Below are positions 55,001 through 61,000 of a stretch of 64,000 bases of DNA, piece after piece. Numbering within the stretch: position 1 is the first letter of the stretch; each line of letters starts with the position of its first letter. The stretch lies in assembly GCF_988243305.1 (NCBI RefSeq), contig NZ_OZ547136.1; one strand, 5' to 3'. The position numbers are program-made.

Positions 55001-58000
55001 AAAATATACGTGGCCTGCATGATGAACTGGTGTTCCCTTCACCCAGAAAGCAGCAGATCCTTTCCGATATGGTGTTGACAAGTTTTCTGCGTAAAAAGAA
55101 AGCCGTCAGTGACATTCCGGGGCGAGTTGCCACGGCACATGGTTTTCGCTCAACATTCAGGGACTGGTGTAGCGAACAGGGGTATTCGCGGGATCTGGCG
55201 GAAAGGGCGCTCGCTCATACGCTGAAAAATAAGGTTGAGGCGGCATATCATCGTACTGATCTACTGGAGCAGCGTGTACCGATGATGCAGGCATGGGCGG
55301 ATTATGTGATGTCTCAAATTGTGAATAAATAATAGTGAAAATGTATATTGTACGATCATGATTTGATATGTGATCGTAGCAGTAGTAATTAAGAAACCGC
55401 TTTTATGTCAAATGTATTGAGCTGATAATTATCAGATCGTCAGGAAAGCGTATTTTGATTAACAGGGGATTACTTAACAATCCCCTTTTTATAAAAAATA
55501 ATTTGCCTGTTTAACTCTTCACTCCTGCTGAGACTGAATTATTCCTAGTGCGTCATAAATCAGTCTTCTGCGTAGTTTATTGTTTTTATCTGCACCATAT
55601 AACATAAATATATTTTCAACTTTTTCTTCAGGTGTTCTGAGATAATGGATAAGAAAGGTTATCATTCCAACACAATGGAATAAAGTGAATCCATCAAACA
55701 GGCTTATCAGGTTTCCTTTTTTTTCCCGTGTTGTAAGTATTTTTTCGCGGGTAAGAATATTTGCCAGTTCATGGGGGGCTGATATGTTTCTGCTGTCTAT
55801 AATGTCATTTATTTTACCAAGGGCTATATCAACTTCCTGTAATAGGTTATTTATCATAGCTGAGTGAATGTTATTGGTTTCATGTTCCTGACAGTTTATG
55901 AACTTATAAATCATTGAGTTATACAGAAATATTACTCTTCCTAATAAATATGTGTTTGTGTCATTTTGAAGACAGGACTCTGGGTATTCGTGATCCAGTG
56001 AAATAAGGTTAATGGACTCGCCCTGATAAGTCATAAAATAATTGATGTCATTTAATAATGCTCGGATATTTACATGATTTTTACTGAATTTTATTTTAAA
56101 TGCTATCTTTAGTATAGCAAACGCGGCAATGATAAATCCAAAAGGTAATTTCTCATAGTTCAGTTTATTGATGGTGCGATGAACACTTTCAGTCTTTCCT
56201 GAAGTAAGTTGTCTCAAACAGTTAACAAATTCTGTATAGCCATTTAAGACATAATGGCATGAAGAATCTTTTAAAGAGTTTTCTATGTTTTGTAATGTGA
56301 CGCCGTTGTTCAATGTATAAATGTAACCGCCAAAGACAATGTTTTCAATCTCAACGACACAATTTATTGTTTTTTGTTCAGGATAAAGATAAATATCAGA
56401 AATACTATAGTCTCGTATTGCGTCAATGGCATCCCACGATAATGCACTGTCAATTTTCAGTGTATAAAATGGTGAGTTCTCATTAGGAAAGTAATATATG
56501 TATTTGTTCAGTATATTCATTACATCTATTGGGTTGGTTAAATATAATAACTGGCATTCATATTCTGAAACTTCTCTTTCGCTTATCAGCATTTTATATA
56601 AAGTTGCCAGGGTGCTTGTTAATGAAGTTCGTCTTTCGAAAGCCAGTAATATAGTGAGATAATAACATGCAACCTGAACTTTATCTAAGTCAGAAATTAT
56701 TTTTTCCTTGTCTTCATTACTTAAATAAAGCAGATGTTTACAGGTTTCTTTGCATGTGTTGATAGTTGCGATAAGTTTTGTTTTTCCTGGTGTACTGTTT
56801 TTGCGAATATTACGAATGAATTCATATACGCCATCAAAGATATCTTTGAAATGCGCATTCGCTGGCGTGTATCCGGATAAACATAACTTAACGTAATTTC
56901 GCAGATATGTCCTTGCAGCATGATATATATCATCCTCATTATCCGGTATCTGAGTGAGAAAAGAATGAATATGATAGTAAAATGCCATCTCATTATCCGG
57001 GCGATATGTGTTCCTGATGTCGAGTGCGAGAATCATTGGTACAATGTCATTAAAATATTTTTGTTTTATTATTTGATGTGTTTTGTCTGTAAAAACAGAA
57101 TAGTGCATTAGCTTAACATAGAGATCTTCATATCTCCTAAATATAACTTTTCGTTGTTCTTTACTCAATACTTGTTCTTTATCAATAATGTTTATTAATT
57201 CATCAAACATGTCGCCCAGTGAATGTTGATGTGAGGAAAAATTTTTAATATTTCGGATGTCACGGCTATTCTGGTTTTTAGCCAGAACACCAAAACATGA
57301 AAAGACATCATACATTATAGTGATAAAATTATACATAACATTCTCCTTTTATTGCACTATATAAAATTTTAACATTATATCATTTTGCTTTTCTGTTAAC
57401 TGGTTTTCATTTTTGAATCAATATTTTCTGAACAGGGTAATAGTACACGTATTAACAGATTATGTCAGAAGGCCCCGGTGATGCCTTCTGACGATAGATT
57501 AATGTTGTATTCTATTGGTATCTGGAGACCATATGGCAACAGTTACAGTATATTCTCCCCGCTGTAATTCCTATAAAGTGTACCGTTATGATCACAGCAC
57601 CTCAGATCATGAGCGTTTCCAGTGCTAATCCTGCAAACGTGTATTTCAACTGAATTACATCTACGAAACCCGAAAACCAGGCATTAAAGAGCAAATTGTT
57701 GAAATGGTTCATAACGGAGCCGGGGGTCGCGATAGCTCCAGAACGCTGAAGGTGGATATCAACACCGTCATTCTCACTTTAAAAAACGCTCACCACGTAA
57801 AGTAACCATATCTCCAGCCGCCAGTGTCGATGTGGCACTTATCTGTGAACTTGATGAACAATGGAGTTTTGTCGAAAACAAAGCTCGTCAGCAGTGGCAC
57901 TGGTACGCGTATAAGACCAAAGCTGACGGTGTGCTGGCTTACACTTTTGGTCCTCGCACTGATGAAACATGCCGTGAGTTGCCGGAATTCCTGAAGCCAT

Positions 58001-61000
58001 TCTCCGCAGGCATGATAACCAGAGACAACCGGAGCAGTTATACCAGAGAAATGCCACAGGATAAGCATCTTGTCGGCAAGATATTTACCCGGCGCATTGA
58101 GCGCAACAATCTGACACTTCGTACTCACATCAAACGACCTGCCCGGAAAACGATTTGCTTTTTACGCTCCCTGGAAATTCACGAAAAGCCATTGGTTCAT
58201 TTATCGAAAACACATGTACTACTGACAGGAGTCATTACCAGGGCCTCTTTTGCTGTTTTTTTGCCATGAATGATAATGAGAATCGACAGCGATAAGGGAA
58301 AAGTAAAATAACACTAATGCTGTCGTTTTCTATCATATTGATTTTTAATTATTTATTGTCTTTTTTCTCAACCCATTTTTTTACGCAGACAAATTTACCC
58401 GGGGAATACAAACTGTAACGACAGTTCACCACACTATGGGGGATAAAATGCCAGATCAATCCGGACACTGCAGGACTCCTTCACGCATCTTACGGATGCC
58501 TGAACTGAGCCAATTGTTAGGTATATCTCGTTCGACAATTTACGAAAAAATGAATCCGTTATCGAAATACTACGATGCAACCTTCCCCAGGCCGGTACGT
58601 CTTGGTAGTGGTTCTGTGGGCTGGCGTTCATCAGCTATTGACGAATGGCTTACTTTACATACTGTACCTGCCAGATCAGCAGTCAAAGGTGTTAATGACG
58701 AAGTGAGACATACGCTTTCTTCAGATATGACCATGAGCAGATAAGTTTTTGTCATCACGTGATCACCTCAGGAGGAAAAAGAAGCATAAGAACAATTTAG
58801 CCAGAAGTTTAATTGATAAACAAAATTTCCAGCATTCATTGTTGAAAGAGCAGCTATTGTCGCTATTGTCGCTATTGTCGCTATTGTCGCTATTGTCGCT
58901 ATTGTAGCGGTAATTGCTGCTATAACCGAAACGTATTATGAAAAAGGAAGCATTTATGCCTTACATCAAACCGGATATGCCGTATTCAGTATATGCATGA
59001 CCATCAATGATAGGGAAGGCAATAATTAAAGCTCAATACAATAAACAAGTACCTCTGACTCTGGTTGCAATGTCAGTATTAACAGCGATGTCAATTGCCT
59101 GTCAGAATCAGGTTGACGTATGCAGTCCCGGAAATTTACGTGGGGCCGTTAATATTTACACTATGGTTCTGGAGAAAGGGAAAAGACCGGGGGAAAGGTA
59201 TTAGTGAAATAATTTCCGGAGGTATTAAGAATGAGAAATATGAATGATATTTCGTGGTGAATAATACAGTCTTCACTGAATTAACCTTATCGGTTTATTA
59301 AACATCAGATCTACAAATGCTCTGTATTTCTCAGAGCATCAGGTCTGAATAGCAGCTATTTTCGCTATTGTAGCGGGATTTGCTGCTATTTTACTAACCC
59401 ATTAATGAAAAGAGAGGCTTTTATGTGCTTACTTGCACCAGAAAATCCTTATCCGATATATGCACTACCACCGCTGGTGAGAAATGCAATAATTGAAACT
59501 CAAAAAAATACACAGGCACCTTTGGCTATGGTGGCAACATCCGCATTAACAGCGATCTCAATTGCCTGTCAGAATCAGATTGACGTGTGCAGACCTGGAA
59601 ATTTACATGGGCCTGTTAATCTTTACTCTCTGATTCTGGCTGATTCCGGTGAAAGGAAAACGACCGTGGATAAAGTGTTTATGAAAGCATTTTATCTCAG
59701 GGATGAAGCCCTGGCGGATGAATACGCGAAACTGGTTGAGAATTACAGTACAGAAAAGGAAATATGGGAGCAAAAACAAAAAGCGCTGGAATCAAAATTT
59801 CATAAAGAGATTCGTGCCGGTAAAGATTACAAGGCAACAGAATCAGAGCTTGAAACGCATCTGAATAAACCTCCTGTTCCGCCGCAGATACGTCGAACAA
59901 TTTTTAATGAGACAACGATAGAGGGAATGTTAAAATATTACTCCGATAGCAATCGCTCTTTTGCTCTTGTATCCAGTGAAGGGGGGGTAATTTTTGACAG
60001 CCGGGCCATGAGTAAACTGGGAATTATTAACACTTTGTGGGATGGAGGTTCTCTTTTCATCGACAGGAAATCATCTCCCGGAATTAATTTGAAGGAGCCA
60101 AGACTGACGATATCGGTGATGATTCAGCCTGATGTTTACCACAAAGGTTTTTGTACGCGAAAAAAAGAAATTGTGAAAACGTCAGGACATCATGCAAGGT
60201 TTTTGATGTGTCAACCAACATCAACGCAGGGGACAAGGATAATAACCGGAGATAATTATTCATCACAGTATCAGGATTTGTTTGAAGAGAGGATCAATGA
60301 GCTTATTGATGAAAGTCTGGCGATGAGTGGTGAACGACGTTGCCTTCACTTTTCTCCTCAGGCTGCCAGAATCTGGACGGATTATTACAATGATGTGGAA
60401 TCGAAGCTGGGGGGATTGGGGCCTTTAAGACATTGCCGGGAATATGCTGCTAAAAATGCAGAGTATATGGCAAGACTGGCAGGACTTATTTACCATTCGA
60501 GCGGTGAAGAGGGGGAGATTTCCCCTTACACTGCAGAAATGGCGAGAGAATTAGCAATATGGTACGGTAATGAGTATGTGCGGTTGTCTAATCCGTTAAC
60601 TTTTGACAACTCTGCCCTGACCGTACCTGTGCGACTCATTCCAGAGGAGCTTGAACTTTTCAACTGGATAAAAAGCTATTGTATTGAGAAGGGGATCCTC
60701 TGTATGAAAAAAAATGACATTTTACAGCGTGGTCCGAACCGTTTCCGGAAAAAGGATAAAATCAACTGGTTACTGGATTTACTGTATGAACAAAACAGAG
60801 TTGTACCGGTTATTGAGGGAAAAACGTTGTGTGTCGCACCTAACTTTGACCTCTGAACGACTTAATCGTTGAGTACATATAGTCTCCTCTGCTACTTGCG
60901 GAGGAGACTAATGTCTTTACCATGTCAGCGTTGTATTAGAAAACTCTGGTACAGGTCAGTCAGTAAATATAACTGGTGTAACCACTATTTACTATTGGAT

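What the first reader, a model, noticed from the sequence alone, without database searches (positions are those of the whole stretch)
57477..58270. Decayed IS1-family element next to the cargo gene
There is an InsA-like start, then a stop after 14 codons, then an out-of-frame InsA C-terminal match and a divergent InsB-like ORF. I can recognise no right inverted repeat. This indicates an old insertion into the island, possibly linked to acquisition or rearrangement of the adjacent 605-aa gene.
Basis: partly seen in the sequence, partly recalled or inferred. Interest (0 to 1): 0.25.

Follow-up and report, generated by a model that had tools for sequence, protein, structure and literature searches.

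The report
Dead IS1 copy fixed in island
This is a 763-base dead copy of an IS1-type jumping gene, with both ends present but a broken transposase gene, that has sat at one spot in a common E. coli genomic island for a long time; it is ordinary and already annotated in public genomes.

Summary
A real IS1-family element occupies window 57477-58239 (763 bp, + strand). It is full length and has both terminal inverted repeats.

The transposase is dead:
- an in-frame TAA at insA codon 32
- a lost zinc-ribbon cysteine
- two 1-nt deletions near the 3' end of insB'
- changes at 29 of 127 positions invariant in 15 intact relatives

Pfam and NCBIfam confirm all IS1 domains. The closest intact elements (IS1N/NuXi type, a Klebsiella plasmid IS1) are only about 73% (nt) and 74% (aa) identical. 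No intact copy of this lineage was found in 5.8 billion proteins.

The remnant is single copy in 1,033 of 5,426 complete E. coli genomes, always in the same int / 605-aa gene / IS1 / alpA / yfjI backbone (SpLE1/OI-43 in O157:H7, also Nissle 1917). No unoccupied site was found. It diverges like intergenic DNA, and RefSeq already labels it "IS1 family transposase; frameshifted; internal stop".

The proposed link to acquisition of the 605-aa gene is not supported. Distant homologues of that gene (29-35% identity) sit divergently beside alpA with 98-146 bp between them and no IS. The IS1 simply landed in that shared control region. Ordinary; low interest.

The parts
57477..58239 (+). Whole IS1-family remnant, 763 bp
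   Evidence: End-to-end alignment with an intact 766-bp IS1 of K. pneumoniae plasmid pKP121-2 and with IS1H and iso-IS1. PGAP labels it 'IS1 family transposase; frameshifted; internal stop'.
57477..57497 (+). Left terminal inverted repeat (IRL), GGTGATGCCTTCTGACGATAG
   Evidence: (I1)
58219..58239 (-). Right terminal inverted repeat (IRR), read inward GGTAATGACTCCTGTCAGTAG; 15/21 match to IRL
   Evidence: (I1). Both ends carry lineage-specific CTGAC / CTGTCAG where relatives have CAATCG / CAATTAG.
57533..57805 (+). insA pseudo-ORF (zinc ribbon + HTH), one frame throughout
   Evidence: Translation; Pfam PF03811 and PF12759
57554..57556 (+). Zinc-ribbon Cys8 replaced by Ser (TCT)
   Evidence: Cys in all 15 intact relatives
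57626..57628 (+). In-frame TAA at insA codon 32 (AAG or an Arg codon in relatives)
   Evidence: also present in the SCU-101 lineage and not variable among the window, L001, L002 and L007-L010 copies
57781..57787 (+). A6C programmed -1 frameshift motif (TTTAAAAAAC), still intact here; mutated to TTTATAAAAC in the SCU-101/Nissle lineage
57785..58225 (+). insB' (DDE) reading frame in the -1 phase; original stop TGA at 58223-58225 inside IRR
   Evidence: Pfam PF03400 6e-59 over profile positions 1-131/131; frames
58184..58187 (+). A-run of 4 where the Klebsiella IS1, IS1H and iso-IS1 copies have 5: first 1-nt deletion, frameshift
   Evidence: column 732; shared with the SCU-101 lineage
58210..58211 (+). 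Second 1-nt deletion (GAAAA-CAC against GAAAAGYAC in the Klebsiella IS1 and iso-IS1)
   Evidence: column 760; frames
57832..58269 (+). 145-aa ORF that gene callers report; it runs 30 nt past the IS end because of the frameshifts
   Evidence: P0004 and many near-identical database entries
57469..57476 (.). Left copy of a possible degenerate 8-bp target-site duplication (AAGGCCCC)
   Evidence: 6/8 match to 58240-58247; background P = 0.005 for this register, 0.009 over k = 7-11
58240..58247 (.). Right copy of the possible degenerate target-site duplication (AGGGCCTC)
57464..57492 (.). Perfect 10-bp hairpin straddling the left IS boundary (GTCAGAAGGC / GCCTTCTGAC); unexplained
   Evidence: I15; fold dG -16.8 kcal/mol, z -4.3, 0 of 200 shuffles; chosen post hoc
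55519..57336 (-). Context: 605-aa gene, start codon 140 bp left of the IS
58448..58744 (+). Context: alpA-family regulator gene, start about 208 bp right of the IS
   Evidence: Pfam PF05930 5.6e-19; PGAP coordinates

Best explanation
Window 57477-58239 is a fossil of a once-active, distinct lineage of the IS1 family (IS1N/NuXi-like clade). It inserted by ordinary transposition into the short divergent control region between a 605-aa gene and alpA, in an ancestor of a common E. coli integrase-borne island. The transposase was then inactivated: a nonsense codon in insA, loss of a zinc ligand, and two frameshifts in insB'. Since then the element has been passively inherited with the island as non-functional DNA, decaying at roughly the neutral rate. 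Shown: its identity, anatomy, lesions, single-copy fixed distribution and unconstrained divergence. Inferred: that the insertion was a simple transposition (from the degenerate target repeat), and that the element has no present function.
For: Full-length collinearity with intact IS1 elements, including both ends. All three IS1 Pfam domains and the NCBIfam IS1 equivalog are matched. dN/dS of 0.16 against an intact Klebsiella IS1 shows most divergence accrued while it was a working gene. Between the two E. coli island lineages there are 15 non-synonymous and 7 synonymous changes (ratio 0.62, not different from neutral, p = 0.31), plus independent extra indels and loss of the A6C motif in one lineage. 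The remnant diverges 3.2-3.5%, against 4-6% for most of the surrounding intergenic DNA (one adjacent spacer is 100% conserved), 0.6-1% for the intact genes int, 605-aa and alpA, and 0.8-1.8% at their synonymous sites. It differs at 29 of 127 positions invariant in 15 intact relatives, where each intact relative differs at 0-8. It is present in 1,033 of 5,426 complete genomes with a median of one copy and a maximum of two. The 605-aa gene has the same maximum of two places per genome, and EDL933 carries two copies of it, which fits island duplication rather than transposition. No genome has the flanks joined without the IS. No intact protein is more than 74% identical. Distant islands have the 605-like/alpA pair without any IS.
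Against: No perfect target-site duplication exists (best 6/8). The remnant has been retained, essentially full length, in every copy of the module seen, which could hint at selection, although hitch-hiking explains it equally well. The 140-bp spacer left of the IS is 100% conserved between lineages, and a strong hairpin straddles the left boundary. So some regulatory role for the junction cannot be excluded.
Confidence: 0.92

Rival explanations
1. The IS1 brought in, or rearranged, the adjacent 605-aa gene, for example by IS-mediated recombination or adjacent deletion.
For: The IS and the 605-aa gene co-occur almost perfectly in E. coli (1,033 and 1,036 genomes). GC content jumps from about 0.31 in the 605-aa gene block to 0.47 in the IS. 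There is no perfect target duplication.
Against: Homologues of the 605-aa protein at 29-35% identity lie divergently next to alpA-DUF3987-yfjJ, with 98-146 bp between them and no IS, in four independent distant islands. The pairing is therefore found without the IS. The replaceable module spans 55333-58889 and the IS is in its interior, not at a junction. The flanks keep a 6/8 direct repeat (P about 0.005-0.009), as expected for a simple insertion.
Confidence: 0.05
2. The remnant has been co-opted. It may act as a spacer or insulator, or supply promoter or structural elements (such as the boundary hairpin), changing how the 605-aa gene and alpA are controlled. On this view it is kept by selection.
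For: It is fixed in all 1,033 module-bearing genomes with no empty site. It splits a control region that is only about 100 bp long in relatives. The left spacer is 100% conserved between lineages. The boundary hairpin folds with z = -4.3.
Against: The IS interior diverges as fast as intergenic DNA and accumulates indels. Promoter-like sites are no more frequent than in shuffled sequence (4 against 4.2). No Rfam family matches. Fixation is fully explained by descent from one ancestor, because a transposase-dead IS has no route to precise loss.
Confidence: 0.07
3. The element is still mobile: either active, or a non-autonomous element mobilised in trans by a related IS1 transposase, since both ends are present.
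For: Both inverted repeats and the A6C motif are present. E. coli genomes often carry other IS1 copies.
Against: Its own transposase is broken in at least three places. There is never more than one copy per island and never a copy outside this context in 5,426 genomes. Its ends differ from those of co-resident IS1 types. A canonical-type IS1 copy in strain MB46 is only 35-37% aa identical.
Confidence: 0.02

Closest known systems
IS1N (IS1-NuXi / iso-IS1 of Shigella dysenteriae, also common in Klebsiella and Salmonella)
   Same: It has the same length class, the same insA / A6C / insB' layout, GGTRATG termini, and all three Pfam domains. It is the closest intact protein group: 74% aa over the InsB region and 63-70% over the whole repaired InsAB'. 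One database entry for the remnant's own ORF is even named 'putative IS1nuxi transposase' (P0001).
   Different: The window element is an outlier. Intact IS1N-type transposases are 80-99% identical to one another, while this one is 63-70% identical to them. It has lineage-specific repeat sequences at both ends, a nonsense codon, two frameshifts, and is single copy.
IS1-family copy on K. pneumoniae plasmid pKP121-2 (transposase WP_136398502.1)
   Same: It is the best full-length DNA match: 72.8% over all 763 bases, both ends included.
   Different: The Klebsiella copy is 766 bp with an intact frameshifted transposase. dN/dS against the window copy is 0.16 with pS about 0.6, meaning an old split under purifying selection.
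IS1H and the pCP301 iso-IS1
   Same: They are about 70-73% identical in DNA over 79-98% of the length and collinear with the window element.
   Different: They are different sub-lineages, and neither shares the window element's lesions or its terminal-repeat variants.
Canonical-type IS1 (the copy next to dgcT in strain MB46)
   Same: It belongs to the same family and has the same architecture.
   Different: It is only 35-37% aa identical to the repaired window protein by tblastn.

Membership tests
IS1 family insertion sequence | Length of roughly 740-800 bp for the enterobacterial members (768 bp for IS1A; from general knowledge) | tested here: met
   763 bp between the two terminal repeats; collinear with a 766-bp intact member
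IS1 family insertion sequence | Imperfect terminal inverted repeats of about 20-25 bp starting GGTRATG | tested here: met
   IRL 57477-57497 and IRR 58219-58239 match at 15 of 21 positions; both start GGT[G/A]ATG
IS1 family insertion sequence | InsA with an N-terminal zinc ribbon and a C-terminal HTH | tested here: met
   PF03811 9.6e-13 and PF12759 3e-21, both above the gathering cutoffs. One zinc ligand (Cys8) has mutated to Ser.
IS1 family insertion sequence | insB' in the -1 frame, encoding the IS1-type DDE domain and reached through an A6C slippery site | tested here: met
   PF03400 6e-59 over the whole profile; NF033558 206.6 bits against a cutoff of 100; TTTAAAAAAC at 57778-57787
IS1 family insertion sequence | Short target-site duplication, usually 9 bp and sometimes 8 (from general knowledge) | tested here: inconclusive
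   The best candidate is an 8-mer, AAGGCCCC / AGGGCCTC, matching 6/8. The 9-mer matches only 3/9. Background P is 0.005-0.009. No empty site is available for comparison.
Active (autonomous) IS1 element | Uninterrupted insA and insB' frames | tested here: not met
   TAA at 57626-57628; 1-nt deletions at 58184-58187 and at 58210/58211. PGAP notes 'frameshifted; internal stop'.
Active (autonomous) IS1 element | Multiple copies or copies at varied loci | tested here: not met
   Median of 1 and maximum of 2 copies per genome. Flank sequence and the 605-aa gene are found in the same ~1,033 genomes, and all nine E. coli copies inspected lie in the same island backbone.
A named ISfinder species (for example IS1N) | At or above ISfinder's identity cut-off for the same IS (about 95% aa / 90% nt, recalled from memory, not checked) | tested here: not met
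   The best intact relatives are 74% aa and 73% nt identical. ISfinder itself could not be queried.

The most novel reading that the evidence does not exclude
The fossil is not merely tolerated. By splitting the roughly 100-bp divergent control region that the 605-like gene shares with alpA in every relative examined, the IS1 may have uncoupled the two genes, for example by freeing the 605-aa gene from AlpA-linked control. This rewired module would then have spread to about 19% of E. coli. The island family also encodes IEE, the IS-excision enhancer, which needs an active transposase. A transposase-dead IS is therefore the one form that could persist there.
Probability: 0.07. Interest if true: 0.35.

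Novelty: already known. Interest (0 to 1): 0.1.

Why it matters
It matters little. The result tidies an annotation by giving exact ends, both repeats and a list of lesions, and it corrects the idea that the IS explains the neighbouring gene. There are two modest uses. First, the remnant is a stable, single-origin marker of one island module (int / 605-aa / IS1 / alpA), found in O157:H7 SpLE1-type islands and Nissle 1917 alike. Second, it records an IS1 lineage with no intact survivor found. The more interesting by-product is that the 605-aa 'cargo' gene is a conserved, fast-evolving partner of alpA with a confident all-alpha model and no recognisable relatives.

Tried and rejected
(1) More IS1 debris in the flanks. 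The left flank's GGTAATAGTACACGT looked like an IS1 end, but local alignments of both flanks against four IS1 sequences on both strands never beat shuffles (p 0.15-1.0).

(2) The joined flanks as a split intrinsic terminator. The fold is no better than shuffles (z = -0.29).

(3) An empty site in E. coli. None of 5,426 genomes has the flanks contiguous.

(4) An empty site in other species. A gapped pattern scan of 100,044 species' genomes gave 2 hits, in an alphaproteobacterial MAG and a Pygmaiobacter MAG, which I judge to be chance matches.

(5) A less decayed or intact copy. None is above 74% aa identity in 5.8 billion proteins. P0087 (83%) turned out to be the same remnant with one extra frameshift.

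(6) Longer true ends. The inverted repeat extends 7 nt outward (AGGCCC[C/T], 6/7, P about 0.0015), but this gives no target repeat and is absent from the Klebsiella IS1 copy. It is most simply explained by the palindromic GGCC core of the degenerate 8-bp target repeat.

(7) Known RNA families or tRNAs near the IS. None were found.

(9) A literature search on IS1 target specificity returned nothing usable.

(10) The yfjI row used out-of-register coordinates and should be ignored.
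Full report
**What is there.** Reading the sequence and listing ORFs shows IS1-like coding fragments between a 605-aa gene on the minus strand (55519-57336) and an alpA-family gene (58448-58744). The longest inverted repeat in the region pairs 57470-57497 with 58219-58246 (I1). A multiple alignment with an intact 766-bp IS1-family element from K. pneumoniae plasmid pKP121-2, an IS1H copy and the pCP301 iso-IS1 is collinear from the first to the last base. The element is therefore 57477-58239, 763 bp. Its left repeat is GGTGATGCCTTCTGACGATAG and its right repeat, read inward, is GGTAATGACTCCTGTCAGTAG; they match at 15 of 21 positions. Both ends carry CTGAC / CTGTCAG where relatives have CAATCG / CAATTAG. 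That is a lineage-specific change on both termini, as expected for a once-functional, distinct IS.

**Coding anatomy and lesions.**
- insA starts at ATG 57533 and stays in one frame to TAA 57803-57805.
- It is interrupted by an in-frame TAA at 57626-57628, which is codon 32. Relatives have AAG or an Arg codon there.
- The A6C slippery motif (57781-57787) is intact.
- The -1 frame encodes a full DDE_Tnp_IS1 domain.
- Near the 3' end, two 1-nt deletions (the A-run at 58184-58187, and 58210/58211) shift the frame twice. The original stop (TGA 58223-58225, inside the right repeat) is missed, and the ORF runs on to 58269.
- With the stop masked and the frameshifts repaired, Pfam gives Zn_ribbon_InsA 9.6e-13, HTH_Tnp_IS1 3e-21 and DDE_Tnp_IS1 6e-59.
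- NCBIfam's IS1 transposase equivalog scores 206.6 bits against a cutoff of 100.
- Aligned with 15 intact relatives, the repaired protein is 63-70% identical to them, while they are 80-99% identical to each other.
- It differs at 29 of 127 positions invariant among the 15 relatives, including zinc-ribbon Cys8->Ser and Trp167->Arg. Each intact protein, left out in turn, differs at 0-8 such positions.

The element and its start coordinate are right. The following are wrong: 'stop after 14 codons' (it is after 31), 'out-of-frame InsA C-terminus' (it is in frame), and 'no right inverted repeat' (it is present). The end coordinate 58270 is the end of the read-through ORF, not of the IS.

**Distribution.**
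- The 763 bases occur in 1,033 of 5,426 complete E. coli genomes, with a median of one place per genome and a maximum of two. Identity is >=99% in 802 records and 95-99% in 232.
- RefSeq annotates the element as 'IS1 family transposase; frameshifted; internal stop'.
- In every copy inspected the order is integrase, 605-aa gene, IS1, alpA, yfjI (DUF3987), inovirus-Gp2-like gene.
- The island lies next to dgcT/pgaA or ycdU in most of the copies inspected, and next to a DUF2726 gene at a second site.
- This is the SpLE1/OI-43-type island of O157:H7, and the same module is in Nissle 1917.
- The 605-aa gene is found in 1,036 genomes, with the same maximum of two places per genome, and EDL933 carries two copies of it. 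The duplicates therefore fit island duplication rather than transposition.
- A 314-nt query made of the two flanks joined found no genome with the flanks contiguous.
- A gapped-pattern scan of one genome from each of 100,044 species found only two matches, in unrelated MAGs, which I judge to be chance.

**Relatives.** The closest intact elements are about 73% identical in DNA: the Klebsiella plasmid copy over full length, and IS1H/IS1N over about 80% of the length. In a search of 5.8 billion proteins, all hits at 83-98% identity are the remnant's own 142-154-aa truncated ORF. The best intact transposases (231 aa, IS1N type, from Klebsiella, Shigella dysenteriae and Salmonella) are 74% identical. 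P0087, at 83%, is the same remnant with one more frameshift. No living member of this lineage was found.

**Mode of evolution.**
- Against the intact Klebsiella copy, dN/dS is 0.16 for both insA and insB with pS about 0.6. The bulk of the divergence therefore accumulated under purifying selection, when this was a working IS.
- Between the window and the SCU-101/Nissle island lineage there are 24 substitutions and 3 gap columns (96.5% identity).
- Of these, 15 are non-synonymous and 7 synonymous. The ratio of 0.62 is not different from neutral (p = 0.31).
- The SCU-101 lineage has its own 2-bp insertion, its own 1-nt deletion, and a mutated slippery site.
- The nonsense codon and both 3' deletions are shared by the two lineages, so inactivation predates their split.
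- Divergence of the remnant (3.2-3.5%) resembles most of the surrounding intergenic DNA (4-6%). It exceeds that of int, the 605-aa gene and alpA (0.6-1%), including their synonymous sites (0.8-1.8%).
- I see no constraint on the IS interior.

**Was the IS involved in acquiring the 605-aa gene?**
- Other E. coli islands share the yfjI backbone at 88-96%, but only from window 58889 rightward. Others share the integrase at 94%, but only up to its 3' end (55323). So 55333-58889 behaves as one replaceable module, with the IS in its interior rather than at a junction.
- Strain MB46 carries a 607-aa homologue of the 605-aa protein (30% identity, E = 2e-60). It is divergently adjacent to an alpA gene whose product is 80% identical to the window's AlpA, with 100 bp between them and no IS.
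- A sensitive all-against-library search found a small family of full-length relatives, 28-35% identical.
- Three more of these, at 35%, 32% and 29% identity, show the same layout: the 605-like gene, then 98-146 bp, then alpA-DUF3987-yagK/yfjJ, again with no IS.
- The pairing is therefore found without the IS and is best read as ancestral. The IS1 landed 140 bp upstream of the 605-aa start codon and about 208 bp upstream of alpA.
- The flanks keep a 6/8 direct repeat, AAGGCCCC / AGGGCCTC. Background probability is 0.005 for that register and 0.009 across k = 7-11. This is what a decayed target duplication from a simple insertion would look like.
- I therefore reject the acquisition or rearrangement link, with about 5% residual probability.

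**Context from the literature.** SpLE1-type elements encode IEE (ECs1305), a PrimPol-helicase protein. It stimulates excision of IS3-, IS1- and IS30-family elements, but only when an active cognate transposase is present (bioRxiv 10.1101/2023.06.07.543989, summarising Kusumoto et al. 2011). The corresponding AEP-TOTE/DEAD-helicase gene lies downstream in O157 and other copies of this island. In the window only a 5' fragment of about 330 bp remains, at about 62395-62727. A transposase-dead IS1 would be immune to this route of loss. This is an inference, not a test.

**Unexplained details.**
- A perfect 10-bp hairpin (57464-57473 / 57483-57492) straddles the left IS boundary, with one arm in the flank and one in the left repeat. 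It folds at -16.8 kcal/mol (z = -4.3, 0 of 200 shuffles). It has no T-tract, and I found it post hoc.
- The inverted repeat extends 7 nt beyond both ends at 6/7 (P about 0.0015). This is most simply a consequence of the palindromic GGCC core of the degenerate target repeat.
- The 140-bp spacer left of the IS is 100% conserved between lineages whose other intergenic regions differ by 4-6%.

**Verdict.** This is a genuine, full-length but dead IS1-family element. It is already annotated as such in more than a thousand public genomes, is fixed by descent in one island module, and has no demonstrated function. It is a distinct IS1 lineage (at most 74% identical to any intact member) with no intact representative found. 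That is a small curiosity rather than a discovery. Interest is low.

Noticed in passing
[not shown]
   Followed up: partly
window 58853-58905: A perfect 9-bp tandem repeat, GCTATTGTC x 5.9, encodes a run of LLS repeats in the small ORF 58749-58907. It lies exactly where homology with other yfjI-type islands begins (58889). The window aligns to the O157 copy (L002) in two blocks that break inside this array, and downstream gene coordinates differ by 9 bp between L001 and L002, which suggests copy-number variation.
   Followed up: partly
window about 62395-62727: Only a 5' fragment of about 330 bp of the IEE (IS-excision enhancer; AEP-TOTE primase/helicase) gene remains here. It is annotated 'frameshifted; incomplete' in the near-identical strain 190693, whereas O157:H7 and other copies of the island carry the full 786-aa gene.
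   Followed up: partly
window 57337-57476: The 140-bp spacer between the 605-aa start codon and the IS left end is 100% identical between the window and the SCU-101/Nissle lineage. Other intergenic stretches differ by 4-6%, so about 5-6 differences would be expected here. This may reflect constraint on the 605-aa gene's control region, or a recent recombination tract.
   Followed up: no
window 53850-53969: The sequence just upstream of the integrase matches the region annotated as tRNA-Ser and as RtT sRNA repeats in other E. coli genomes at 89-97%. ARAGORN nevertheless finds no intact tRNA anywhere in the 64-kb window. The integrase-proximal island end therefore seems to carry only an att-type tRNA fragment.
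   Followed up: no
window 59007-59204 and 59405-60856: A 65-aa ORF annotated elsewhere as 'DUF3987 domain-containing protein' lies upstream of yfjI. Against strain HB37, window 58889-59215 and 59321-59694 each align a second time at 73-77% to a neighbouring stretch, which suggests a partial tandem duplication of the yfjI 5' region.
   Followed up: no
H121 (NZ_CP024232.1, E. coli O6:H16 2014EL-1346-6), homologue of window 55519-57336: In this strain the 605-aa gene matches in two pieces spanning 2,595 bp instead of 1,818 bp, with a second feature annotated 'IS1 family transposase' between them. This is an independent and probably recent IS1 insertion into the gene itself.
   Followed up: no
window 57473-57476; L002: The C-run abutting the left IS end is CCCC in the window and CCC in O157:H7 strain PV15-279. 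The candidate target-duplication sequence is therefore itself length-polymorphic.
   Followed up: no
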